The notes below the pieces were generated by a model that saw only the letters and a list, made by a program, of their open reading frames with translations, made no database searches and was not told the DNA's origin. This document shows, in pieces, positions 1 to 25,231 of a stretch of 41,291 nucleotides of DNA. How positions within the stretch are numbered: the first letter of the stretch is position 1; the number at the start of each line of letters is the position of its first letter. Where the stretch lies: the IMG/VR virus record IMGVR_UViG_2537562194_000035; one strand, written 5' to 3'. The translations under genes were made by a program, and so were the position numbers. This stretch comes from a virus (taxonomy: Duplodnaviria > Heunggongvirae > Uroviricota > Caudoviricetes).

Positions 1-585
1 TTACGCACCAGCCTTTTTCTGGGTTACATTTAAATGATTAACCTTAGCTTCACATTCTTCATAAATCTCTCTTACAGTATCATCGGGTAACTCTTGTAGA
101 CTCAATGCTAGTGCTCTTTTGACTCCGCTCAATGAGTGCAGTTTTTGAATATCTGTATCAAGCAAAACGGTTAGTAGTTCGGCCCCTTTTCTGATCAATA
201 AGTTGGACAAAATCTCTTGTTCAGATGAAGTTAGCGAGTCCCACGCCCTCATGATGATGGAATCACTATCATCAATTCTTTGTTTTTTTGTTCTTTTTGT
301 TTGTTCAATTGGTTCTTTTTTCATGCTTGGCTCATCACCATAACCATTGACTAGCCACTCCATAGATACATGTTCTCTTTCTGCAATGTTCTGGAGATGG
401 TGCTTTCTTGGTTGTGGTGGCGGCTGATTGTTTCTCCTTTTGTAGTAGTTCTGCAATGTCTGAACGTTTATTCCCCATGCTCTAGCCGCCTCACTTCTCG
501 ATTTGTAACGCTCTGCAAGACGAAAAATCCGTTCGATCACTGGTTCTTTTCCTTCGTCGAGAAAAGAACTGTTTTTCATGTTCAT
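1..585 (-). CDS. Prophage immunity repressor, CI-type HTH (motif ...SMEWLVNGYG), divergent from ner/A
   Basis: Minus-strand ORF ending at window position 1-3. Start placed at ATG 583-585 (MNMKNSS...) with an AGGAA Shine-Dalgarno upstream; the track ORF extends to 714 but that N-terminal extension is AT-rich intergenic. Position matches Mu repressor c. Confidence 0.7.
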   Translation of the reverse strand: MNMKNSSFLDEGKEPVIERIFRLAERYKSRSEAARAWGINVQTLQNYYKRRNNQPPPQPRKHHLQNIAEREHVSMEWLVNGYGDEPSMKKEPIEQTKRTKKQRIDDSDSIIMRAWDSLTSSEQEILSNLLIRKGAELLTVLLDTDIQKLHSLSGVKRALALSLQELPDDTVREIYEECEAKVNHLNVTQKKAGA

Positions 586-752
586 GCTCTCAGGTTCCTT
601 TGTATTTATCTTATTGATATTAATAACAAAAACACCGCAAAGAATAAAAAGAACAAAATACCTTGATTTGGTTCTTTTGTTTGTTCTATTATTTACCCGT
701 ACAGATATCCGCACGAATATCCGCGCGGGTAACTTTTTAGAATAGAGGAAGT
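586..752. promoter_or_regulatory. Repressor/ner divergent operator-promoter region (early promoter and repressor promoter equivalents)
   Basis: AT-rich 167-bp gap between divergent repressor and ner; contains direct repeat ATATCCGC x2 (about 703-722) and several AACAAAA-type repeats. Operator positions not resolved. Confidence 0.5.
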
Positions 753-8227: not shown

Positions 8228-8475
8228 TAACGACATTATTTGTTGAATCAGATGAACCCCTTGTGTGTGCCGTCGGAATGCCGGTCTGTGGCGGAACGCT
8301 GACCGGTGTTTATTTCGGGGATTTGCGCGGTTATCCCTGGCATTCACTGAATGATGCTTTCCCGCCTGATATGGAGGCTGTCGTGCTGATTGTTCAGTAT
8401 GGTGACCAACAGGAACTGCGCATCGGCCATATGGGGTATGAAGGCTTTTTTATTGATGAAGAAACCGGAGCCTGA
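8224..8475 (+). pseudogene. Early gene truncated at its 3' end by the IS629-like insertion
   Basis: Reading frame runs into the IS left terminus, whose TGA supplies the stop. With the IS and one GCC copy removed, the frame continues about 20 codons to a TGA at 9846-9848 overlapping the next gene's ATG. Confidence 0.7.
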
Positions 8476-8526
8476 ACCGCCCCGGAAATCCTGGAGACTA
8501 AACTCCCTGAGAAAGAGGTAAACAGG

Positions 8527-8853
8527 ATGACTAAAAATACTCGTTTTTCCCCCGAAGTCCGTCAGCGGGCGATTCGTATGGTTCTGGAAAGTCAGGATGA
8601 ATATGACTCACAGTGGGCGGCAATTTGTTCCATTGCCCCAAAGATTGGCTGTACGCCGGAGACTCTGCGTGTCTGGGTTCGCCAGCATGAGCGGGATACC
8701 GGGGGCGGTGATGGTGGGCTCACCAGCGCTGAACGTCAGCGTCTGAAAGAGCTGGAACGTGAAAATCGTGAACTGCGCCGCAGTAACGATATCCTTCGCC
8801 AGGCTTCCGCTTATTTTGCGAAGGCGGAGTTCGACCGCCTCTGGAAAAAATGA
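8527..8853 (+). CDS. IS629-like transposase OrfA (HTH, leucine-zipper region)
   Basis: 108 aa, [22 protein letters not shown]..., recognised from memory as IS629/IS1203 OrfA. Confidence 0.9.
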
Positions 8854-9740
8854 TGCCACTGCTGGATAAGCTGCGTGAGCAGTACGGGGTCGGACCGGTA
8901 TGCAGCGAACTGCATATTGCCCCGTCAACGTATTACCATTGTCAGCAACAGCGACATCATCCGGATAAACGCAGTGCCCGTGCGCAGCACGACGACTGGC
9001 TGAAGAGAGAGATACAGCGCGTATACGATGAAAATCATCAGGTGTACGGTGTGCGTAAAGTCTGGCGTCAGTTGTTACGGGAAGGAATCAGGGTGGCCAG
9101 ATGTACAGTGGCACGTCTCATGGCGGTTATGGGACTTGCCGGTGTTCTCCGGGGTAAAAAGGTCCGTACGACCATCAGCCGGAAAGCCGTTGCCGCAGGC
9201 GACCGCGTAAACCGTCAGTTCGTGGCAGAACGACCTGACCAGCTGTGGGTGGCTGATTTTACTTACGTCAGCACATGGCAGGGCTTCGTCTATGTGGCGT
9301 TTATCATTGATGTGTTTGCCGGATACATCGTGGGGTGGCGGGTCTCATCGTCTATGGAAACGACATTCGTGCTGGATGCGCTGGAGCAGGCGTTGTGGGC
9401 CCGTCGTCCGTCTGGCACCATCCATCACAGCGATAAAGGCTCTCAGTATGTGTCACTGGCCTATACGGAGCGACTAAAAGAAGCCGGATTACTGGCATCA
9501 ACAGGGAGTACAGGCGACTCGTATGACAACGCGATGGCTGAGAGCATCAATGGTCTTTACAAAGCGGAGGTAATACACCGTAAGAGCTGGAAAAACCGTG
9601 CAGAAGTGGAACTGGCCACACTAACGTGGGTGGACTGGTATAACAATCGACGATTGCTGGGAAGGCTGGGCCATACTCCTCCGGCAGAAGCAGAAAAAGC
9701 TTATTATGCTTCCATCGGAAACGATGATCTGGCAGCCTGA
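8850..9740 (+). CDS. IS629-like transposase OrfB (DDE catalytic domain)
   Basis: 296 aa; overlaps orfA at an A6 run (8845-8850), a likely programmed -1 frameshift site for an OrfAB fusion. Confidence 0.9.
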
Positions 9741-9844
9741 GTTCACAGATAAAACACTCTCCAGGAAACCCGGGGCGGTTCAGCCTGCCTTGAAGATGAG
9801 GACGGACAGGTGACGCACTGGTGCCATATTTCAGCTTTACCGGA

Positions 9845-10213
9845 ATGACGGGAGGTGAATGCGTGAGAAGTTATATTGATAATGAAAAACTGAAGACAAT
9901 CAGCGACTGTCTTAGCTTGCTGGCAAAAATAAAAGAAACCATTGAAGAGATTAAATTTCAGCTTGAATACGAACCCTGTGGCGATGATACATTGCGTAAC
10001 TCTGCCAGAAAAGCACTGGCTGTCTTTCAGAAACAACGCCGGACTGTTGAATACCGCCTTGCTGTATTGCGCCAGGAGGAAAAGGAAAGAAATATAAGAC
10101 GTCATGAACTCGTTAATGATTTTCTTGTTCGTGAATTAAAGGAGCGTGTGCCGGAGTCGGTATTTTTTGAGTGTGAGGCTGTTGCCCGTAGCAAAGCACT
10201 GGAAACTGATTAA
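9845..10213 (+). CDS. Hypothetical early protein
   Basis: ATG 9845 overlaps the reconstructed stop of the interrupted upstream gene (ATGA); the track ORF begins at 9821 only because of the IS-induced frame change. Confidence 0.5.
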   Translation: MTGGECVRSYIDNEKLKTISDCLSLLAKIKETIEEIKFQLEYEPCGDDTLRNSARKALAVFQKQRRTVEYRLAVLRQEEKERNIRRHELVNDFLVRELKERVPESVFFECEAVARSKALETD

Positions 10214-16336: not shown

Positions 16337-17925
16337 TGGGACGCATAATTGATCTTGACGGAAAACCTTTCTCCTTTGACCCGGAGATGCAGAGTGCCGT
16401 GCTGGATATTCCGCAGATTGCCAGCCGTTATATTGAACATCCGGCCTCGGGTATCACCCCGAACCGGGCGGCACAGTGCCTTCGCGGAGCTGAACGTGGC
16501 GATCTGATTGCCCAGTCCGATCTGGCCGCTGACATTGAAGAAAAGGATACCCACCTTTTTGCAGAGCTGGGCAAGCGACGCCTTGCCATTCAGGGGGTGT
16601 CCTGGAGTATTGAGCCGCCCCCGAACGCCAGCGCGAATGAGAAAAAGGACGCGGAAATGCTCGACGAATATCTGCATTCCGCCGACTGGTTTGATGCCAT
16701 GCTGTTTGATGCCACCGATGCCATCCTGAAGGGCTATTCCTGTATGGAGATTGAGCACGGGATGCTCGGTAAAATGCACATCATCCGCGCCATCCGCTGG
16801 CGTGACAGCGGGCATTTCTGCCTTAACCCGGATGATTTGAGCGAACTGCGGCTGCGTGACGGCAGCCATGCCGGGGTGGCGTTTCAGCCCTTTGGCTGGA
16901 TAGTGCATCAGTCGCGTTCACGCACTGGCTACGGTGGTGCGACGGGGCTTGTCAGAACGCTTATCTGGCCGTTCATTTTCAAAAACTATTCCGTGCGCGA
17001 TCTGGCTGAATTTCTGGAGGTGTACGGCCTGCCGATGAAGGTCGGTAAATACCCGTCCGGGGCAACACCGGAGCAGAAAAGCGCCCTGATGCGGGCGGTG
17101 ATGGATATCGGGCGACGTACAGGCGGGATCATCCCGGCCGGGATGTCGCTGGAGTTTCAGGCGGCAGCGAACGGTCAGGCCGATCCGTTTGAAACCATGA
17201 TTTCGTGGGGGGAGCGTTCCATCTCCAAAGCTATCCTCGGCGGCACGCTGACCACGGAAGCCGGAGACAAGGGCGCACGTTCGCTGGGTGAAGTGCATAA
17301 CGAGGTGCGCCGGGAAATCAGGGATTCTGATTTACGTCAGCTGGCCGCCACGCTGAACCGCGATCTGGTGTATCCGCTGTATGCCCTGAACACCGCCCAC
17401 GCCATTGATATCCGTCGCCTGCCGCGTATCTGTTTCCAGACAAAAGAGCCGGGGGATATCACCAAAATCACCAGTGCGGTGATGCAGCTCAGTACGGGGA
17501 TGGATATTCCTGATCCCTGGGTGCGGGAGCAGACCGGTATTCCACAGCCTGCCCCCGGTGAAGCCATCTTCCGTGTCCGTCAGAGTGGCAATGAACCTGC
17601 TCAGACAGACAAAGAGATGCCACCGGAAAAACAGGAGAAGACAGAGCAGACAGCGCTGGCTGCCAGACTGCCGGAAGCGAAGAGCAGCCCCCGAGATGAA
17701 CTGGACGACATGGGGGATGCGGTGCCTGCCCGCCGGTTACAGGAGGCCATCGACCCGGTACTGGAGCCGGTCATTGAAGCCATCAGAACGCGGGGGCTGG
17801 CGGAGGCACTGGCAGACCTGCCTGCCCTTTACCGTGAAATGGATGATTCCCGCCTGATGACGCTGCTCAGTGATGCCATGTTTGCTGCGGAAATGAAGGG
17901 GATGCTGGATGGCACAGGGGATTGA
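16327..17925 (+). CDS. Portal protein (Mu gp29 family)
   Basis: 532 aa following the terminase. Confidence 0.8.
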   Translation: MLVVGRIIDLDGKPFSFDPEMQSAVLDIPQIASRYIEHPASGITPNRAAQCLRGAERGDLIAQSDLAADIEEKDTHLFAELGKRRLAIQGVSWSIEPPPNASANEKKDAEMLDEYLHSADWFDAMLFDATDAILKGYSCMEIEHGMLGKMHIIRAIRWRDSGHFCLNPDDLSELRLRDGSHAGVAFQPFGWIVHQSRSRTGYGGATGLVRTLIWPFIFKNYSVRDLAEFLEVYGLPMKVGKYPSGATPEQKSALMRAVMDIGRRTGGIIPAGMSLEFQAAANGQADPFETMISWGERSISKAILGGTLTTEAGDKGARSLGEVHNEVRREIRDSDLRQLAATLNRDLVYPLYALNTAHAIDIRRLPRICFQTKEPGDITKITSAVMQLSTGMDIPDPWVREQTGIPQPAPGEAIFRVRQSGNEPAQTDKEMPPEKQEKTEQTALAARLPEAKSSPRDELDDMGDAVPARRLQEAIDPVLEPVIEAIRTRGLAEALADLPALYREMDDSRLMTLLSDAMFAAEMKGMLDGTGD

Positions 17926-19240
17926 TTTAGGTTATGCCGCCACGCTTCCCTCAAAAGAGGCGGTGGCATACTTCCGCGCCAAAGGGGCGCATATCAGCTG
18001 GAACTGGTTCGAAACAGACGCGGATGTTCATGCCCGTTCATTCACGGCGGCAAAAGTGGCACGCCTGGACGTACTGACCACACTACAGGCGGAAGTGCAG
18101 CGTGCTGTTGATGAGGGGATTTCACAGAAAGCATTTATCCGCACACTGACACCCCGCCTGCAAAAGCTGGGATGGTGGGGAAAGCAGATTGTGGTGGACA
18201 GCGCCGGTAACGCAGAAGAAGTGCAACTGGGCAGTCCCCGCCGTCTGGCGCTGATTTACAACGTGAACACCCGCGTGGCTTACAATGCCGGGCGTTACAC
18301 GCAGATGATGAACAACACGGACACGCATCCGTTCTGGCAGTATGTGGCGGTGATGGACAGCCGCACCCGCCCGGCGCATTCCGCCCTTAACGGGCAGGTA
18401 TTCCGCTATGACGATCCGTTCTGGAATACACACTACCCACCCAATGGCTGGAACTGCCGCTGCCGTGTCCGGCCATTGTCTCAGACCCGTCTGGATGCAA
18501 TGGGGTTATCCGTTTCATCCGGTCAGGATCATCTTTCCACCCGCAATGTTGAGGCTGGCGTGGATAAGCAGACCGGAGAAGTCAGAGAAATGCCGGTGAC
18601 CACATATTCAGATGGCACCAGAACCATGACACCGGATGTGGGCTGGTCATATAACCCCGGCTCGGCGGCGTTCGGCACAGACCAGGCGTTGATCCGTAAA
18701 CTGATCGAGGTGAAAAGCCCGGCGCTGCGGGAAATGGTAGTGCAGGAGATGAACAACAGCCCGGAGCGGCAGCTGGCGTTCCGCATCTGGGCAAAAAACA
18801 TCATGAAAACCCGGCGAGGCGGTAACGATATCCGCACGCTGGGCTTTATGACCGAAAGCATTGCGCAGGCGGTGGAAAGCCGGACGGGAACGCCACCGGC
18901 CCGCCTGCTGGCGATGAGCGGTAAAAATGTGCTCCATGCGGACAGCATGAAACATCAGAATGACGGTATCGCCCTGACGCCGGAGGATTTCGGTCGATTA
19001 CCGGCAATGCTGGCAAAGCCAAAAGCGGTGCTGTGGGACAAACGCCACAACAATCTGATGTATATCGTGGAAAGTAAGGATAGCAGTGTGCAGATTGCCG
19101 TTAATGCGCCGTACAGCCTGAAGCGTCAGCCGGATAAACTGGATGTGATTGTGAATGCTTACCGGGTTATCAATATGGATAAGCTGAAATCGGATATCCG
19201 GGGTGGAATGCTTGAGGTACTGGAAGGAGATATTGATTAA
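17909..19240 (+). CDS. Head morphogenesis protein, Mu F-like
   Basis: 443 aa following the portal. Confidence 0.75.
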   Translation: MAQGIDLGYAATLPSKEAVAYFRAKGAHISWNWFETDADVHARSFTAAKVARLDVLTTLQAEVQRAVDEGISQKAFIRTLTPRLQKLGWWGKQIVVDSAGNAEEVQLGSPRRLALIYNVNTRVAYNAGRYTQMMNNTDTHPFWQYVAVMDSRTRPAHSALNGQVFRYDDPFWNTHYPPNGWNCRCRVRPLSQTRLDAMGLSVSSGQDHLSTRNVEAGVDKQTGEVREMPVTTYSDGTRTMTPDVGWSYNPGSAAFGTDQALIRKLIEVKSPALREMVVQEMNNSPERQLAFRIWAKNIMKTRRGGNDIRTLGFMTESIAQAVESRTGTPPARLLAMSGKNVLHADSMKHQNDGIALTPEDFGRLPAMLAKPKAVLWDKRHNNLMYIVESKDSSVQIAVNAPYSLKRQPDKLDVIVNAYRVINMDKLKSDIRGGMLEVLEGDID

Positions 19241-19361: not shown

Positions 19362-19835
19362 ATGTCATCCATTGATGCCGCTGTCGTTGTTGACGTTACG
19401 CGTCTCCAGCGGGTCTTTGCCCGGCTTCAGTTTGTGGGTGGAGGGAAAGACCTGGCCCGCAGTGTGGCGGCGAGTCTTCTGTCATCGTCAGAAATGGCGT
19501 TTGAACAGGAAAAAGAGCCGGACGGCGAACGCTGGCATGACTGGTCAGATCCTTACCGCAAGTGGCGTACCCGTAAGGGATACATGCCCGGCAAAATCCT
19601 GACGCTGAACGGCGATCTGGCCCGACGCCTGACCACGGATTATGGCGATACCTGGGCGCTGATTGGATCAAATGAGCCTTATGCGGCCATTCATCAGTGG
19701 GGTGGCCTGCCTGGTATGCCACCGGGACCGGCGGCCATTGGCGCACGCCCGTATATGGGCTTTGATCAGGTGGCAGAGCAGGAGATCATGGACGAAATCA
19801 GAAAACGCTTTAAAAAGGCCACAGAAACGCCTTAA
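19362..19835 (+). CDS. Virion morphogenesis protein, Mu G-like
   Basis: 157 aa, GGAGG SD; position. Confidence 0.7.
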   Translation: MSSIDAAVVVDVTRLQRVFARLQFVGGGKDLARSVAASLLSSSEMAFEQEKEPDGERWHDWSDPYRKWRTRKGYMPGKILTLNGDLARRLTTDYGDTWALIGSNEPYAAIHQWGGLPGMPPGPAAIGARPYMGFDQVAEQEIMDEIRKRFKKATETP

Positions 19836-20011: not shown

Positions 20012-21136
20012 ATGAAGACGAAAAACACGCCCAAACTTGCTTATGCCATTCTGAATGCCATCAGCCTGTCCGCAGACGGGGACGGTGACTGGTGTCAGAT
20101 CATGCCAGCCGGTCGGGTAAAGGCCCGTGACGGTCGCCCGGAAAAACCGGCCGAGGGCTGGCTGATTAACCGTGCGACCGTTGAGCGCATGGTATCCCGG
20201 GTTGTGGCGCTCAATCAGCCGGTGAAAATTGACTACAACCACCAGACCCTGATTAAGGGGCATCAGGCACCGGCTGCCGGTTTTGTGATGGCCTCACCGG
20301 AGAATTTTCGCTTCAGTGAAGAGCGTGGCTTCGAGGTGCGCCCGAAGTGGAACCCTCCGGCCCTTGAACATCTGCGTAATAACGAATTCCCCTGGTTTTC
20401 ACCGGTGATTGGCTATGACGAGAACACCGGCGAACCTGTCGAACTTCGGATGCTGGCTATTACCGGTGACCCCGGTCTGACCGGCATGAATCCTGTCGCC
20501 GCGCTGTCGGCGGATGACCTTTATAACGCCTTAAACCCTCCTTTAAAGGATACCTCCATGAATGAGCAATTACGCCAGTTGCTGACGGCGCTCGGTCTGA
20601 CCGTGGCTGACGGTGACGAATTTACGCCGGAGCTGGGCACGGCGGCGCTGTCTGCCCTCACCGGGATCAAAACCCGTGCGGATGCACACGACAACCTGAA
20701 AACACAGGTCGCCAGTCTGTCGGCAGAGCTGGAAACCGCAAAAGGCACACCGGCTGGCGGCATTATTGATCTGACGAAATACGTGCCCGTTGAAACGTAT
20801 AACGCCCTGCGTACCGAATACGTTGCGCTGTCGGCGCAGCACGGCAGCACCACGCTGGAGCAGGTGCTGGACAAGGCTGAATCCGAAGGGCGCATCTTCA
20901 AAAGCGAACGCGGCTATCTGGAACAACTGGGCGGGCAGATTGGCGTTGCGGCACTTTCTGCACAGCTTGACGCCCGCCAGCCGGTTGCGGCCCTGACCTC
21001 TCTTCAGACCGACACCGTGACCGTGCCGGATAAAAAGACTGCCACCGCTGCGCTGTCGGCTGAAGATATCGCGGCCGCCAAACTGCTGGGTAAAACCGAA
21101 GCCGAGTTCCTGAAAATGAAAGAGGAAATGCAATAA
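20012..21136 (+). CDS. Head protease/scaffold protein, Mu I-like
   Basis: 374 aa immediately upstream of the major head gene; Ala-rich C-terminal scaffold-like part. Confidence 0.7.
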   Translation: MKTKNTPKLAYAILNAISLSADGDGDWCQIMPAGRVKARDGRPEKPAEGWLINRATVERMVSRVVALNQPVKIDYNHQTLIKGHQAPAAGFVMASPENFRFSEERGFEVRPKWNPPALEHLRNNEFPWFSPVIGYDENTGEPVELRMLAITGDPGLTGMNPVAALSADDLYNALNPPLKDTSMNEQLRQLLTALGLTVADGDEFTPELGTAALSALTGIKTRADAHDNLKTQVASLSAELETAKGTPAGGIIDLTKYVPVETYNALRTEYVALSAQHGSTTLEQVLDKAESEGRIFKSERGYLEQLGGQIGVAALSAQLDARQPVAALTSLQTDTVTVPDKKTATAALSAEDIAAAKLLGKTEAEFLKMKEEMQ

Positions 21137-22083
21137 TGCCTACCCCGATTACACCGGCGATGATCACAGCCCTGATGACGGGCTACCGTTCTGATTTTCA
21201 GGCCGGGATGTCCATGGCCCCGTCGCAGTATAAAAAAATTGCGATGACCGTGCCCTCCACATCGAAATCCAACACCTACGGCTGGCTGGGGCAGTTCCCG
21301 CAGTTCCGTGAGTGGATCGGCTCCCGCGTCATCGAGAAGATGAAAGCCTATGGCTATGCCATCGTGAACAAAACTTTTGAAGGCACTGTCGCCATTAGCC
21401 GCGATGACTTCGAAGACGACAACCTCGGTATTTATTCCCCGTTGTTCCAGGAGATGGGGCGCGCTGCGGCGGTACAACCGGATGAGCTGGTCTTTGCTGC
21501 CCTGCGTGACGGGATCAGTGCGGCCTGCTATGACGGTCAGAACTTCTTTGATACCGAACATCCGGTTTACCCCAAAGTGGATGGCTCCGGGGATGCGCAG
21601 ATGGTCAGCAATATGTTTGTGGCAAAAACCGGCTCTGTCGGCGCACAGGCTGATTACAGCGGTCCGGCCTGGTATCTGCTTGACTGCTCCCGCGCGGTAA
21701 AACCGCTGATTTATCAGGATCGCCGTAAGGCTGAACTGGTTGCCCAGACCAAAGTCGATGAAGGTCGCGCATTCACCGATAACGAATTTGTGTTTGGTGC
21801 ATCCGCCCGTCGCAATGTGGGCTACGGCTTCTGGCAGATGGCCTACATGATGCAGTCACCGCTGACGCTGGATGCACTGTGGCACGGCTGGTCAGCCATG
21901 CGCGAATTTACCGCTGACGGTGGCCGCAAACTCGGCATTAAACCCACCCATATTGTTGTCCCCACCTCGCTGGAAAAACAGGCGGTGCAGCTGCTGGAGC
22001 GTGAACTGTTCGCAGACGGAAACGCAACCGTCTCTAACGAGATGAAGGGTAAGCTGGAGCTGGTTGTCGCGGATTATCTGTAA
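21136..22083 (+). CDS. Major head subunit, Mu T-like
   Basis: 315 aa, strong SD AAGAGGAAA; followed by a stem-loop. Confidence 0.8.
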   Translation: MPTPITPAMITALMTGYRSDFQAGMSMAPSQYKKIAMTVPSTSKSNTYGWLGQFPQFREWIGSRVIEKMKAYGYAIVNKTFEGTVAISRDDFEDDNLGIYSPLFQEMGRAAAVQPDELVFAALRDGISAACYDGQNFFDTEHPVYPKVDGSGDAQMVSNMFVAKTGSVGAQADYSGPAWYLLDCSRAVKPLIYQDRRKAELVAQTKVDEGRAFTDNEFVFGASARRNVGYGFWQMAYMMQSPLTLDALWHGWSAMREFTADGGRKLGIKPTHIVVPTSLEKQAVQLLERELFADGNATVSNEMKGKLELVVADYL

Positions 22084-22126
22084 ACGGTGAGCCGGGCTTA
22101 CGGCCCGGCCCCTGCGGAGGGCAAAT

Positions 22127-22513
22127 ATGAATGAACATCACACTGTGGCAGCAACAGATGATTCAGGTCTTCAGGTCAGTGGTGACAATTCTGTCACGGT
22201 GCTGGCAGAAGTGCGTTGCAGTCGTTCGGCGTTTCGTCGTGCGGGGTTCCTGTTCACGCGTGGACGTCAGCAGGTTGAGGTCACCCCGGAGCAGCTTGCC
22301 CGACTGGAGGAGGAGCCATGCCTCACTGTGCGAATACTACAGACGTCTGCTGATGATGCGGGGAGCGTGGCGGGTGTGGTTCATGCAGTGGCCGGTACAG
22401 ATTTAGCCGAAGCCGAAGCCGAAGCCGAAGCCGAAGCCGAAGCCGAAGCCGAAGCCGGACAGGATGCTCCCCGGAAAAAGACCGGTAACAAAGCGGAACA
22501 GGCCCGTGCATGA
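22127..22513 (+). CDS. Hypothetical head-module protein containing an (Ala-Glu)8 repeat
   Basis: 128 aa, GCGGAGGG SD; encodes ...LAEAEAEAEAEAEAEAEAGQ... Confidence 0.6.
   Translation: MNEHHTVAATDDSGLQVSGDNSVTVLAEVRCSRSAFRRAGFLFTRGRQQVEVTPEQLARLEEEPCLTVRILQTSADDAGSVAGVVHAVAGTDLAEAEAEAEAEAEAEAEAGQDAPRKKTGNKAEQARA
22406..22453 (+). repeat. Perfect hexanucleotide tandem repeat (GCCGAA)8, plus an imperfect ninth unit GCCGGA
   Basis: Read directly from the sequence. Confidence 0.95.
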
Positions 22514-22929
22514 ATTACGCCACTGAAACCGATATGCGGGCGCGTTACCGCGAGGATTTGCTCAGGCCGTTACTGGCTGTGCCCCGTTCGGATGAGCCGG
22601 ACACGCGCAAGCTGAACCGGGCGCTGACAGATGCGTCAGCCCTTATCGACAGCTATCTGTCCGCCCGTTACACGTTGCCGCTGGAGGTTATTCCGGCCGT
22701 TCTTGTTCAGCACTGTTGCGCGATTGCCTTTTATTACCTGTGCGATCAGCGAGCCTCCGATCAGGCGCGTGACCGTTACCGTGAAGCGCTGGCCTGGCTG
22801 AAAGATGTCATGAACGGCAATGTGCCGGTCGGTGTGGATACGAACGGTGCGGCCCCTGAATCCGGGGATTTACCACAGGTTCAGTCTGATGCAGCGGTAT
22901 TCGGGCGCAACCAGAAGGGCTTCATATGA
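22510..22929 (+). CDS. Head-tail connector/completion protein (Mu gp36 position)
   Basis: 139 aa. Confidence 0.6.
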   Translation: MNYATETDMRARYREDLLRPLLAVPRSDEPDTRKLNRALTDASALIDSYLSARYTLPLEVIPAVLVQHCCAIAFYYLCDQRASDQARDRYREALAWLKDVMNGNVPVGVDTNGAAPESGDLPQVQSDAAVFGRNQKGFI

Positions 22930-23486
22930 TTACGGAAACCGAACAGGCATACATCGCCCGTATCCGTGAGTATTTCGGGAATGAACTGGTGTCTGTTGAC
23001 ACGCATCCCGGCGACTGGAGCGACAGCGTACTGCGCACCATGCTGATTAACGCCCCGGCGATCTACGTTGCCTGGCTGGGTGCCGGTGAAGGCCGTACCC
23101 GTGGTCGCCTGGTCAGTCACTGGGTGTTCTACGTCATCGGCGACATGCTCAACGGGCGTGAGGCCAGCCGTCCCGGACTGTATCAGATTGTGGCCCGGCT
23201 GATTGCCGTGCTTAACGGCTTCAGAACAGAAAAAACCTCACCGCTTTACTTTGAAAAGGCGGTCAACGGTTACACCGAAACCCAGGCGGACAGTGGTGCG
23301 GTGATGTATGCGCTTTATTTCTCCTGCGAGGAAATGATCGCACCGCTGACCGATACCAGCTCGCTGGACGACTTCCTGCGTCATTACGAAACCTTTGTGG
23401 AGCCGCCCGGTACGCCGCCGTTTGAGGCACATATTGATTTGCCGGGGAACACGACAACGGCGGTCGAACCGCCGGAGGAACTGTAA
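22926..23486 (+). CDS. Head-tail joining protein (Mu gp37 position)
   Basis: 186 aa. Confidence 0.6.
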   Translation: MITETEQAYIARIREYFGNELVSVDTHPGDWSDSVLRTMLINAPAIYVAWLGAGEGRTRGRLVSHWVFYVIGDMLNGREASRPGLYQIVARLIAVLNGFRTEKTSPLYFEKAVNGYTETQADSGAVMYALYFSCEEMIAPLTDTSSLDDFLRHYETFVEPPGTPPFEAHIDLPGNTTTAVEPPEEL

Positions 23487-23732
23487 ATGAAAACCATCTT
23501 TATCAAACCCGCGCCGGGACGCCTGATTCGTGATCCCGACACAATGCGCCCGCTGGCACAGGAGGGGGAGGAAAAGCCCTTTACGCCGTTCTGGTGTCGG
23601 CGTCTTGATGACGGCGATGTCATTCAGGCTGAAAAAGCCGCTGAAGAGGCTCCGGCTGTATCTGCGGATGCAACGACTGCGACAGAAAAACCGGTCGCCC
23701 AACCGGCATCCGATAAGGAGAAACCGCAATGA
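23487..23732 (+). CDS. Small structural protein (Mu gp38 position)
   Basis: 81 aa. Confidence 0.5.
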   Translation: MKTIFIKPAPGRLIRDPDTMRPLAQEGEEKPFTPFWCRRLDDGDVIQAEKAAEEAPAVSADATTATEKPVAQPASDKEKPQ

Positions 23733-25231
23733 TTAATTTTGACGGGATCGGTAATGACCGCCGTATACCGCTGATTGAGGTTGAGTTTAATAACTCCATG
23801 GCTGTCACCGGCACTCCGGCACAGCGTCAGTGTGTGCTGCTGTTTGGTCAGGCGAGAATGAAAGAGAATGCCGTGGACGGTGCCGGTGTTCTGGATGTTC
23901 CGGTCAGGATCACCCGTGCGTCTCAGGCAACAGAACTCTGGGGGCGCGGCTCCATGATTGCCCTGATGGTGGCGGAATTTATCGCCATCAATCCTGATGC
24001 TGAACTGTATGCCATTGCTCAGGGGAACGGCACCGGACAGGCAACGGCTGCGGCCATGAATCTGACCGGAACGGTCACCCGTGACGGGATTGTTTATGCC
24101 TGCGTGGGGGGGCGGCGTTATACACTCCCGGCACCAAAAGGTAAGAAAGGCAAAGAACTGACCGACGAGCTGGCCGCGCTGATCAATGCCGATCCTGACG
24201 CGCCCTTCACGGCCTCCTCTGGTGCAGGAAGTGGTGATAATGGCGCAGGTCTGAAAGGGTCTCTGGGGATCACCGCCCGCTTTACCGGTGAATGCTCCGT
24301 TCATGATGTGCGCCTGAACTATCACGACGGGGAAGCAACCCCGGAAGGAATACAGGTCGCTATAGCCTATCCGAAACAAAAAGCGGCTAACCCGGATATC
24401 ACCCGAAGCGTGGCGGGTATGGGCGATCGCCAGTACAACTATGTCGTCATGCCCTATAAGGATGATGCAAACCTGAAAATCATCAGTGATGAGCTTCTGA
24501 AACGCTGGGGACCGGCCAAAATGTCTGACGGCGTGCTGTGGCTGGCACATACCGGCACGTTTGGTGAGGTGCAGGCATTCGGGGCAAAACGCAATGATTT
24601 TCTGGCGACCTGCACATCCATTCCCAAAGCCCCTGAACCGGATTACCTCTGGGCAGCGGCGGTCTGTGCCACCTGTGCACCCTCTCTGGGAGCAGATCCT
24701 GCGCGTCCGCTTCAGACGCTGGCGCTTCCGTCACGCATGGCCCCGGCTCCGGCCGATCGTCTGACGCGTGAAGAGCGTAACAGTCTGCTGTGGGGAGGGA
24801 TTGCCACGGTCAGTGTGGCTGCCGGTGATGTGGTTCAGATCGAACGTCAGGTGACCATGTATCGCCAGAACGTGTACGGCGAAAGTGATCCCAGCTATCT
24901 GGATGTGGAAACCATCTACACCCTCTCCTGGCTGCGTTATTCCCTGCGTACTTTTATCACACAACGTTTTCCGCGCCATAAACTGGCTGATGACGGGACG
25001 CCCGTTCGTGCCGGTCAGAATATCGTGACGCCGGAGATCATGAAGCTTCAGTTAATTTCGCTGGGTGAAGAGTGGGTGGAACTCGGGCTGGTCGAAAATC
25101 TGGACACCTTTAAAAAGAATCTGCTTGTGGAGCGTAATGCGTCAGATCGAAACCGTCTTGACGTGTTATGCACGCCGGATCTGGTTAACCAGTTCCGCTT
25201 CCTGGCAGCACAGATCCGTTTCATTTTGTGA
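23729..25231 (+). CDS. Contractile tail sheath protein, Mu L-like
   Basis: 500 aa followed by the tube gene. Confidence 0.8.
   Translation: MINFDGIGNDRRIPLIEVEFNNSMAVTGTPAQRQCVLLFGQARMKENAVDGAGVLDVPVRITRASQATELWGRGSMIALMVAEFIAINPDAELYAIAQGNGTGQATAAAMNLTGTVTRDGIVYACVGGRRYTLPAPKGKKGKELTDELAALINADPDAPFTASSGAGSGDNGAGLKGSLGITARFTGECSVHDVRLNYHDGEATPEGIQVAIAYPKQKAANPDITRSVAGMGDRQYNYVVMPYKDDANLKIISDELLKRWGPAKMSDGVLWLAHTGTFGEVQAFGAKRNDFLATCTSIPKAPEPDYLWAAAVCATCAPSLGADPARPLQTLALPSRMAPAPADRLTREERNSLLWGGIATVSVAAGDVVQIERQVTMYRQNVYGESDPSYLDVETIYTLSWLRYSLRTFITQRFPRHKLADDGTPVRAGQNIVTPEIMKLQLISLGEEWVELGLVENLDTFKKNLLVERNASDRNRLDVLCTPDLVNQFRFLAAQIRFIL

What the first reader, a model, noticed from the sequence alone, without database searches (positions are those of the whole stretch)
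22406..22459. (GCCGAA)8 microsatellite inside a head-module gene
Eight perfect hexamer units encode an (Ala-Glu)8 tract. Perfect tandem repeats of this length are slippage-prone; because the unit is 6 nt, copy-number change keeps the frame and only alters tract length, giving length polymorphism rather than on/off switching. The protein sits between the major head and connector genes and may be a decoration or scaffold-like protein.
Basis: seen in the sequence. Interest (0 to 1): 0.45.

Follow-up and report, generated by a model that had tools for sequence, protein, structure and literature searches.

The report
Known typing microsatellite in Mu-like prophage
The six-base repeat is real and its copy number changes quickly between closely related E. 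coli strains, but it is already used as the surveillance typing marker EHC-5 and only lengthens or shortens a floppy tail of a small phage protein of unknown role.

Summary
Observation confirmed. Window 22406-22453 holds eight perfect GCCGAA units and 22454-22459 a variant ninth unit (GCCGGA). They are in frame in a 128-aa ORF (22127-22513) between the Mu-type major head gene gpT and the head-tail adaptor gp36.

The slippage and length-polymorphism reading is correct. Among 103 E. coli complete-genome records I infer 18 allele sizes, from 1 to 20 units. In the 13 tracts I read base by base, every change is a whole unit. In seven alleles of 6 to 20 units, the 1.2-1.5 kb of flanking sequence fetched is 100% identical to the window. 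Prophages sharing one insertion site still differ (8/8/6 and 13/14/15).

It is not new. The published primers for MLVA locus EHC-5 (Izumiya 2010 scheme for EHEC O157/O26/O111) match perfectly at 22334-22356 and 22474-22496, bracketing the tract.

The protein is neither a decoration nor a scaffold protein. It belongs to the Mu gp35 / HI1506 (FluMu_N) family, whose function is unresolved. This lineage lacks the family's C-terminal domain, and the (Ala-Glu)n tract starts at that domain boundary. AlphaFold predicts the region as disordered, and the protein evolves under much weaker constraint than its neighbours.

Best reading: a slippage-driven, probably near-neutral length polymorphism. Interest is low.

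The parts
22406..22453 (+). Eight perfect GCCGAA units (codons 94-109, (Ala-Glu)8). This is the variable core of the VNTR.
   Evidence: Copy number is 6, 8, 10, 13, 14, 15 and 20 in loci whose flanks are 100% identical.
22454..22459 (+). Variant ninth unit GCCGGA (Ala-Gly). It closes the array in most alleles and is itself expanded in some.
   Evidence: Protein P0001 has (AE)5(AG)4.
22127..22513 (+). CDS for a 128-aa Mu gp35 / HI1506-related protein (identical in this stretch to Sakai ECs_4975).
   Evidence: Pfam FluMu_N 9.8e-9, 35.2 bits against a cutoff of 25.8. phrog_3622 2.5e-81. PDB 2OUT E 1.6e-4. Weak tblastn match to Mu gene 35. RefSeq annotation 'HI1506-related protein'.
22199..22345 (+). 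Folded N-terminal FluMu_N domain (aa 25-73): beta-hairpin, helix, strand.
   Evidence: AlphaFold2 pLDDT 83-92 for blocks 21-70, with elements E25-38, E41-52, H54-61, E66-73. Top Foldseek PDB hit is 2OUT.
22460..22510 (+). Short basic C-terminal tail (QDAPRKKTGNKAEQARA) after the repeat. Other lineages carry a 9-nt (KKA) insertion here.
   Evidence: pLDDT about 40-50 with no secondary structure.
22334..22356 (+). Binding site of the published MLVA EHC-5 forward primer.
   Evidence: Primer from S5 Table of PMC10062581. Exact single match in the window.
22474..22496 (-). Binding site of the published MLVA EHC-5 reverse primer. The amplicon 22334-22496 is 163 bp.
   Evidence: Primer from S5 Table of PMC10062581. 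Exact single match in the window.
22116..22121 (+). Shine-Dalgarno sequence GGAGGG, 5 nt upstream of the ATG at 22127.
   Evidence: Read directly from the sequence.
22510..22513 (+). ATGA overlap: the gp35 stop codon overlaps the gp36 start codon, suggesting translational coupling to the head-tail adaptor gene.
   Evidence: gp36 is Pfam Phage_Mu_Gp36 3.5e-35.

Best explanation
The tract is a hypervariable coding hexanucleotide VNTR, identical to the published MLVA typing locus EHC-5. It lies in a Sp18-type Mu-like prophage of Shiga-toxin-producing E. coli.

Shown:
- It is a perfect (GCCGAA)n array.
- Alleles differ only by whole units, while kilobase flanks stay identical.
- Prophages that are identical by descent (same insertion site) carry different copy numbers.
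- Arrays of 1-2 units show the same span in every record sampled, whereas arrays of 4 or more units vary.

Inferred mechanism: slipped-strand mispairing during DNA replication adds or removes 6-nt units. Because the unit is two codons, each event only lengthens or shortens an (Ala-Glu)n stretch.

Shown for the protein: it is a Mu gp35 / HI1506-family protein made of a folded FluMu_N domain and a C-terminal region predicted to be disordered. In this lineage the family's usual C-terminal helical domain is missing. The repeat begins exactly at the conserved 'DL' where that domain would start, and a short basic tail follows it.

Inferred consequence: the length changes are tolerated and close to neutral, not a switch. 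The region is unstructured, and the protein's non-repeat part evolves with dN/dS of 0.56-0.88, against 0.03-0.10 for the flanking head and adaptor genes.
For: Repeat and chance:
-.

Identity with EHC-5:
- Both primers match with 0 mismatches and bracket the tract.
- In PCR-based MLVA of O157 isolates, EHC-5 fails to amplify in 31-100% of strains per clade. When present it shows alleles 2-14. That fits a variably present prophage.

Polymorphism:
- 229 of 5426 E. coli genomes carry the region.
- Match spans differ from the window by whole 6-nt units, plus an inferred 9-nt tail insertion in some lineages. That gives 18 allele sizes from 1 to 20 units in 103 records.
- Direct reading of 13 tracts (the window plus 12 fetched loci) confirms 2, 4, 6, 8, 10, 11, 12, 13, 14, 15, 16(+1) and 20 units.
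- For alleles 8, 10, 13, 14, 15 and 20, the 706 + 541 nt flanks are identical. For the 6-unit allele, 814 + 645 nt are identical.

Identity by descent:
- Only O111 strains 95NR1, 95JB1 (8 units each) and 8B (6 units) share the window's prophage/host junction.
- Cattle strains 118, 121 and 113 share an identical 1501-nt junction but have 15, 13 and 14 units.

Short-array stability:
- All seven sampled one-unit records have the same 868-nt span.

Protein family and architecture:
-.

Disorder:
- pLDDT is about 40 with no secondary structure for residues 82-112.

Weak constraint:
- gp35 has 9 synonymous and 15 nonsynonymous differences; gp36 has 31 and 7 (Fisher p = 8e-4).
- pN/pS is about 0.43 in the N-domain and 0.9-3 in the leader and linker.
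Against: - Neutrality is inferred, not measured. No phenotype data exist for any allele.
- The dN/dS contrast rests on one divergent lineage with 21-24 substitutions.
- AlphaFold used a shallow alignment of 13 sequences, and poly(Ala-Glu) could be helical in some conditions.
- The array persists in prophage lineages whose flanking region is 8-10% diverged, always with the same codons. That could mean something maintains it, although recurrent slippage alone homogenises arrays.
- I could not read the original EHC-5 paper (Izumiya 2010, not held). The identification rests on primer sequences quoted in a later paper.
Confidence: 0.75

Rival explanations
1. Adaptive 'tuning knob'. The length of the acidic (Ala-Glu)n spacer modulates how the basic C-terminal tail or the N-domain of gp35 acts, for example in DNA or neck binding during head completion. 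Rapid length change would then be selected to diversify phage properties.
For: - The tract persists, pure and with the same codons, in prophage lineages whose flanking region is 8-10% diverged.
- It sits between a folded domain and a conserved basic tail.
- The gp35 family typically has a linker between two domains (PDB 2OUT title; sequences).
- The protein shows elevated dN/dS, which could reflect diversifying selection.
Against: - There is no preferred length. Almost every size from 1 to 20 occurs, and one-unit alleles are common (7 of 103 records; cluster P0057 has 150 member sequences).
- The region is predicted to be disordered.
- Nonsynonymous changes concentrate in the leader and linker rather than on a defined surface.
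- No functional data exist for any gp35 homologue, and Mu cryo-EM could not even locate it.
Confidence: 0.1
2. Decaying remnant. In the Sp18 lineage gp35 has lost its C-terminal domain and is dispensable. The ORF is kept open mainly so that ribosomes reach the overlapping gp36 start, and the VNTR is a by-product of relaxed constraint.
For: - The C-domain is absent, although it is present in Mu gp35 and in the Edwardsiella and other homologues.
- dN/dS is 0.56-0.88 and substitutions are spread evenly over codon positions (7, 7, 7-10).
- The gp35 stop and gp36 start overlap as ATGA.
Against: - The ORF is annotated as an intact 'HI1506-related protein' in all but one of the listed rows; the exception is a 13%-coverage partial hit. 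None is flagged as a pseudogene.
- N-domain motifs shared with distant homologues (FRRAG, EQLA.L..(E/D)P.L.V) are retained, and N-domain pN/pS is about 0.43.
- A strong Shine-Dalgarno sequence precedes the start.
- The prophage family is evidently mobile, with many different insertion sites, up to 4 copies per genome, and copies inside Stx phages and on a plasmid.
Confidence: 0.12
3. Head decoration or scaffold protein with a variable surface-exposed tract.
For: The gene occupies the slot after the major capsid gene where many phages encode decoration proteins.
Against: - The protein is in the FluMu_N / HI1506 family, not a known decoration fold. Foldseek against the PDB gives only 2OUT.
- The Mu cryo-EM study describes capsid stabilisation as independent of cement proteins and did not find gp35 on the capsid.
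- By homology to Mu, where scaffold Z is the C-terminal part of gene I, the scaffold would be part of the gpI homologue at 20012-21136.
Confidence: 0.03
4. The copy-number differences are assembly or sequencing artefacts.
For: Many short-read-derived proteins end inside the tract (the 'partial' entries P0055, P0062, P0063, P0069), which shows that the repeat breaks assemblies.
Against: - Independent complete genomes of related strains give reproducible values: 6535WT, 6535NalR and M1300706002 all have 14; FRIK2455, FRIK2533 and FRIK2069 all have 8.
- Every sequence-verified difference is a whole unit.
- Fragment-length MLVA by PCR finds the same kind of variation at this locus.
Confidence: 0.01

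Closest known systems
MLVA locus EHC-5 (Izumiya et al. 2010, Microbiol Immunol 54:569; scheme used in Japanese EHEC O157/O26/O111 surveillance)
   Same: Both published primers match the window exactly and bracket the tract. The locus is absent from many strains and highly polymorphic when present, as I see in complete genomes.
   Different: Nothing at the DNA level; it is the same locus. The one paper naming EHC-5 in the searchable library treats it purely as a marker. I found no description of the gene product, the (Ala-Glu)n reading or the Mu-like prophage context. The original paper could not be read.
Mu gp35 / Haemophilus FluMu HI1506 (PDB 2OUT; Pfam PF17891 FluMu_N)
   Same: The N-terminal domain is homologous. 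The gene sits in the same position, between major head gene T and adaptor gp36. A low-complexity region follows the N-domain.
   Different: Mu gp35, HI1506 and the Edwardsiella and other homologues carry a C-terminal domain (DLNxRIRxAVxxLDKDNPxHFTxxGxPKVxAV...). The Sp18-type protein has the (AE)n repeat plus an 18-21 aa basic tail in its place. The function of the family is unresolved.
Other prophage- or plasmid-borne MLVA VNTRs, such as Salmonella Typhimurium STTR6 in a Gifsy prophage and STTR10 on pSLT (recalled from memory, not checked here)
   Same: Short-unit VNTR on a mobile element, giving null alleles where the element is absent and fast copy-number change where it is present.
   Different: Different element, unit and gene. 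The resemblance is recalled, not tested.
Simple-sequence contingency (phase-variable) loci of Haemophilus and Neisseria
   Same: The mutational mechanism is the same: slipped-strand mispairing at a perfect short tandem repeat inside a coding region.
   Different: The unit is 6 nt (two codons), so no frameshift or on/off switching occurs. Every sequence-verified allele is in frame.

Membership tests
MLVA locus EHC-5 | Published forward and reverse primers anneal on either side of the repeat, in convergent orientation | tested here: met
   Forward primer at 22334-22356 (+) and reverse primer at 22474-22496 (-), 0 mismatches, each with a single site in the window. Amplicon is 163 bp.
MLVA locus EHC-5 | Copy number polymorphic among EHEC strains; null in strains lacking the locus | tested here: met
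   An inferred 1 to 20 units across 103 records, and presence in only 229 of 5426 genomes. MLVA data show null alleles in 31-100% of isolates per O157 clade and alleles 2-14.
MLVA locus EHC-5 | Repeat unit and genome position as given in the original description (Izumiya 2010) | not testable with these tools
   The original paper is not in the held library. Only the primers quoted in PMC10062581 were available.
Mu gp35 / HI1506 (FluMu_N) family | Pfam PF17891 match above the gathering threshold | tested here: met
   35.2 bits against a cutoff of 25.8, E 9.8e-9, residues 36-72.
Mu gp35 / HI1506 (FluMu_N) family | Gene located between Mu-type major head gene T and gp36 adaptor gene | tested here: met
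   gpT at 21136-22083 (Mu-like_gpT 6.6e-119). gp36 at 22510-22929 (Phage_Mu_Gp36 3.5e-35). Mu has the same order.
Mu gp35 / HI1506 (FluMu_N) family | N-domain fold like PDB 2OUT | tested here: met
   phmmer against PDB gives E 1.6e-4. The AF2 N-domain has pLDDT about 90. 2OUT is the top and only credible Foldseek hit, although the score is weak (E 3.6e-3, prob 1.00, TM 0.33 over the whole chain).
Mu gp35 / HI1506 (FluMu_N) family | Two-domain architecture with a C-terminal helical domain after the linker | tested here: not met
   The alignment shows the C-domain in P0084, P0086, P0087, P0089 and Mu gp35, but not in the window protein or any Sp18-type E. coli homologue. It is therefore a truncated or variant member sharing only the N-domain.
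Phase-variable contingency locus | Repeat-number change shifts the reading frame or alters promoter spacing, giving on/off expression | tested here: not met
   The unit is 6 nt, and all 13 tracts read directly are in frame. The tract is internal to the CDS.
Phage head decoration / cement protein | Fold or sequence related to known decoration proteins, or located on the capsid surface | tested here: not met
   No decoration family appears in Pfam or PHROGs and no such fold in Foldseek against the PDB. The Mu cryo-EM study describes capsid stabilisation as independent of cement proteins. Location in the Sp18 virion itself is not testable here.
Phage scaffolding protein | Homology or position of the Mu scaffold (gpZ, C-terminal part of gene I) | tested here: not met
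   The gene I homologue (Mu-like_Pro 1.5e-76) is at 20012-21136. The Mu annotation places scaffold Z inside gene I.

The most novel reading that the evidence does not exclude
In the Sp18 lineage, the C-terminal domain of the gp35 neck/head-completion protein has been replaced by a self-expanding acidic (Ala-Glu)n spacer plus a basic tail. The rapidly mutating spacer length would tune a step in head completion or DNA retention, making this a phage structural-module 'tuning knob' that happens to have been adopted as a typing marker.
Probability: 0.07. Interest if true: 0.45.

Novelty: already known. Interest (0 to 1): 0.13.

Why it matters
In practice the locus already matters as a surveillance marker. 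Knowing that EHC-5 sits in a transposable Mu-like prophage explains several things.
- Null alleles arise where the prophage is absent.
- Genomes carrying two to four prophage copies could give multiple bands.
- The locus can move between lineages, or into Stx phages, independently of the chromosome.

Biologically it adds one small point. The gp35/HI1506 family tolerates loss of its C-domain and 1 to 20 Ala-Glu pairs in its tail. That fits a protein whose tail sequence is of little importance, and it gives a natural allelic series for anyone who wants to test what gp35 does.

Tried and rejected
- **Hidden overlapping gene.** The +1 frame ORF 22131-22406 (91 aa) ends exactly at the repeat and stays open in diverged loci. 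Its dN/dS (0.50-0.62) is not clearly better than the annotated frame's, and the annotated frame carries the Pfam/PDB homology. Rejected as coding evidence.
- **Wider species survey.** The genome-contig scan with the family alignment returned only Edwardsiella and one MAG locus, neither with the repeat. A second homologue search seeded with the Edwardsiella protein added only one sequence. An all-against-library HMMER search gave 14 hits, which were useful for architecture only.
- **Literature searches that found nothing.** ECs4975; MLVA + O157 + Sp18; O157-37 + O157-25 + 'repeat sequence'.
- **Literature searches that found nothing relevant.** VNTR + O157 + Mu-like; GCCGAA + 'tandem repeat' + O157; HI1506. 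The two papers cited in the Mu GenBank record (PMID 29767456 and 17400915) are not held.
- **My early assumption that the window is Sakai Sp18 was wrong.** The gp35 region is 100% identical to Sakai. However, the right junction matches only O111 strains 95NR1, 95JB1 and 8B, and the early region differs.
- **EHC-6 primer.** It does not match the window.
- **Terminator scan.** It gave nothing convincing around the gene.

Full report
**1. The observation**

Reading the sequence shows GCCGAA repeated eight times at 22406-22453, then GCCGGA at 22454-22459. Tandem Repeats Finder gives 22405-22457, period 6, 8.8 copies, 100% matches and score 106. The next best array in the 41-kb window scores 44.

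The run of identities at lag 6 is 47 bases. Elsewhere in the window the longest is 8, and in 200 first-order Markov simulations the maximum is 12. Chance is therefore excluded.

The tract is in frame in ORF 22127-22513 (128 aa). Codons 94-109 are (Ala-Glu)8, followed by Ala-Gly and the tail QDAPRKKTGNKAEQARA. A GGAGGG Shine-Dalgarno sequence lies 5 nt before the ATG, and the stop codon overlaps the start of the next gene as ATGA.

**2. Context**

The window is a Mu-like prophage. Pfam identifies these genes in order:
- MuF (17909-19240)
- gpG-like morphogenesis protein (19362-19835)
- gpI protease/scaffold (20012-21136)
- major head protein gpT (21136-22083)
- the 128-aa ORF
- gp36 adaptor (22510-22929)
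- gp37 (22926-23486)
- DUF2635 (23487-23732)
- tail sheath (23729-25231)

The 901 nt around the tract are 100% identical to prophage Sp18 of E. coli O157:H7 Sakai, where the gene is ECs_4975. The window itself is not Sakai, for three reasons:
- Its prophage/host right junction (prophage end at 40327) is shared only by O111 strains 95NR1, 95JB1 and 8B.
- Its first 591 nt do not match the corresponding left-end (repressor) region of Sakai Sp18.
- It carries an IS3-family element that Sakai Sp18 lacks.

**3. Is the copy number polymorphic?**

Yes, strongly. The region occurs in 229 of 5426 complete E. coli genomes, at 268 places with 1 to 4 per genome. It also occurs inside two Stx-converting phage records and on one plasmid.

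From the spans of the 901-nt query in 103 distinct records I infer these unit counts:

| Units | 1 | 2 | 4 | 5 | 6 | 7 | 8 | 9 | 10 | 11 | 12 | 13 | 14 | 15 | 16 | 17 | 18 | 20 |
|---|---|---|---|---|---|---|---|---|---|---|---|---|---|---|---|---|---|---|
| Records | 7 | 3 | 4 | 2 | 4 | 3 | 20 | 6 | 5 | 3 | 3 | 15 | 18 | 4 | 1 | 3 | 1 | 1 |

Some lineages are assumed to carry a 9-nt insertion in the tail. All five divergent loci fetched to check this (L008-L012) carry the insertion, and their spans fit.

I read 13 tracts base by base (the window plus 12 fetched loci):
- Six (the window and L002-L006) have 8, 10, 20, 15, 13 and 14 perfect units, with 706 + 541 nt of flank identical to the base.
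- Strain 8B has 6 units, with 814 + 645 nt identical.
- Five loci from lineages 4-10% diverged over the 901-nt region have 11, 16 (+1 leading GCCGGA), 2, 4 and 12 units.

Two groups of prophages that must be identical by descent, because they share one insertion site, still differ:
- O111 strains 95NR1 and 95JB1 have 8 units and strain 8B has 6.
- Cattle strains 118, 121 and 113 share an identical 1501-nt junction next to a fimbrial gene but have 15, 13 and 14 units.

Replicate or derivative genomes agree with each other, so this is not assembly noise. 6535WT, 6535NalR and M1300706002 all have 14 units, and three FRIK strains all have 8.

Short arrays look stable: all seven sampled one-unit records have the same 868-nt span. 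Protein clusters add interrupted alleles (VE, TE, SE, KA) and alleles with expanded GCCGGA units, such as (AE)5(AG)4. Many 'partial' proteins end inside the tract, which marks short-read assembly breaks.

**4. It is a known marker**

A paper on Japanese EHEC surveillance MLVA lists a locus EHC-5 that fails to amplify in most O157 isolates and is very variable when present. Its S5 Table gives the primers ATACTACAGACGTCTGCTGATGA and CCGCTTTGTTACCGGTCTTTTTC.

Both match the window once, without mismatch, at 22334-22356 (+) and 22474-22496 (-). They bracket the tract with a 163-bp amplicon.

The paper's S3 Table shows EHC-5 null in 76%, 31%, 100%, 97% and 60% of clade 2, 3, 7, 8 and 12 isolates, with alleles 2-14 otherwise. 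The scheme is attributed there to Izumiya et al. 2010.

The original paper is not held, so I could not confirm its stated unit and coordinates.

**5. What the protein is**

- Pfam FluMu_N: 35.2 bits against a cutoff of 25.8.
- phrog_3622, unknown function.
- PDB 2OUT, the NMR structure of HI1506 / FluMu gp35, described in its title as a two-domain protein.
- A weak tblastn match to Mu gene 35.

The curated Mu GenBank record calls Mu_35 a 'head-to-tail connector complex protein'. The 2025 cryo-EM study of Mu could not resolve gp35. It says only that gp35 may be an additional connector-related protein, and it describes capsid stabilisation as independent of cement proteins. By homology to Mu, the scaffold function would lie within the gpI homologue. 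'Decoration or scaffold' is therefore not supported.

Distant homologues, including Mu gp35, Edwardsiella P0084 and P0087, P0089, P0091, P0093, P0095 and P0097, share one architecture. It consists of a variable leader, the FluMu_N domain, a low-complexity linker, and a C-terminal domain beginning 'DL(N)xRIRxAV...'.

The Sp18-type proteins stop following this pattern exactly at 'DL'. The (AE)n tract starts there and is followed only by a short basic tail. Pfam has no model for the C-domain.

AlphaFold2, run with a shallow 13-sequence alignment, gives a confident N-domain (pLDDT 83-92; strands 25-38, 41-52 and 66-73; helix 54-61). It gives pLDDT of about 40 and no secondary structure for residues 82-112.

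**6. Constraint**

I compared the window with three loci from a diverged lineage (L008-L010).
- The 93 non-repeat codons of gp35 have dN/dS of 0.56-0.88, with substitutions spread evenly over codon positions.
- The adjacent gpT C-terminus and gp36 have dN/dS of 0.03-0.10.
- gp35 has 9 synonymous and 15 nonsynonymous differences against 31 and 7 for gp36 (Fisher p = 8e-4).
- Within gp35, pN/pS is about 0.43 in the N-domain and 0.9-3 in the leader and linker.

The three loci are not independent and the counts are small. The direction is nevertheless clear: the tail region where the repeat sits is under little sequence constraint.

**7. Mechanism**

Shown: a perfect array, whole-unit changes, flanks invariant over more than 1 kb, variation within identical-by-descent prophages, and stability of very short arrays.

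Inferred: replication slippage (slipped-strand mispairing), with a rate that rises with array length. Because the unit is two codons, the frame is never lost, so this is not a phase-variation switch.

Inferred: the resulting 1 to 20 Ala-Glu pairs in a disordered tail are tolerated and close to neutral.

Rivals:
- An adaptive spacer-length 'tuning knob' (about 0.1).
- A dispensable remnant ORF kept open for translational coupling to gp36 (about 0.12).
- A decoration or scaffold protein (about 0.03).
- An assembly artefact (about 0.01, contradicted by the PCR-based MLVA data).

**8. Verdict**

The protein assignment is wrong, and the locus is already known and in routine use as EHC-5.

What I did not find in the searchable literature is the gene-level description: an (Ala-Glu)n tract taking the place of the C-domain of a gp35/HI1506-family protein in a Mu-like prophage. 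That is a modest annotation point, not a discovery.

Noticed in passing
window 8231-10213 (orfA 8527-8853, orfB 8850-9740; ALIL pseudoknot 8808-8924): An IS3-family insertion sequence lies in the prophage early region, inside a 1983-nt segment that replaces 204 nt of Sakai Sp18. It has two overlapping transposase ORFs (HTH_Tnp_1 and rve) and the Rfam ALIL frameshifting pseudoknot (121.5 bits). Whether it inactivates an early gene was not examined.
   Followed up: partly
window 22131-22406 (+1 frame relative to gp35): A 91-aa alternative-frame ORF starts 4 nt after the gp35 ATG and stops exactly at the first repeat unit. It stays open in loci about 8-10% diverged over the surrounding region. 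Its dN/dS (0.50-0.62) gives no clear sign of coding. Two database proteins (P0073, P0082) are frameshift hybrids of the two frames.
   Followed up: yes
window 22091-22109: A 7-bp GC-only hairpin (GCCGGGC-TTACG-GCCCGGC) lies directly after the major head gene stop, with no T-run after it. Mu has a predicted terminator at the same position after gene T. It may be an mRNA stabiliser or attenuator that lowers expression of downstream genes. It was not folded or tested.
   Followed up: no
window 36041-38080: A 679-aa cargo protein with a SASA sialate-O-acetylesterase domain plus DUF6645. It resembles the NanS-p esterases of EHEC prophages (resemblance recalled, not tested) and lies downstream of the tail-fibre and DNA-invertase region. 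Sakai annotates it as hypothetical (ECs_4993).
   Followed up: no
window 1-591: The left-end region, including most of ORF 1-714 (-) which has no Pfam hit, has no megablast match to Sakai Sp18. The rest of the prophage is 96-99% identical to Sakai Sp18 wherever the two align. This suggests a different repressor or immunity module. The prophage left end appears to lie beyond the window start.
   Followed up: partly
window 40327/40328 and related loci (L015, L017-L019): The prophage right end is at 40327. Relatives sit at many different chromosomal sites (sorM in Sakai, next to fbpC, ydhK or a fimbrial operon, inside Stx phages, on a plasmid), with up to 4 copies per genome. This Mu-like family has therefore transposed recently and often in STEC.
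   Followed up: partly
window 22127-22405 compared with 21700-22083 and 22510-22929: In the diverged lineage, synonymous divergence in gp35 (dS 0.09-0.14) is two to three times lower than in the flanking gpT and gp36 genes (0.27-0.38), while nonsynonymous divergence is several-fold higher. Counts are small. The cause (mosaic recombination, a constraint on the RNA, or chance) was not resolved.
   Followed up: partly
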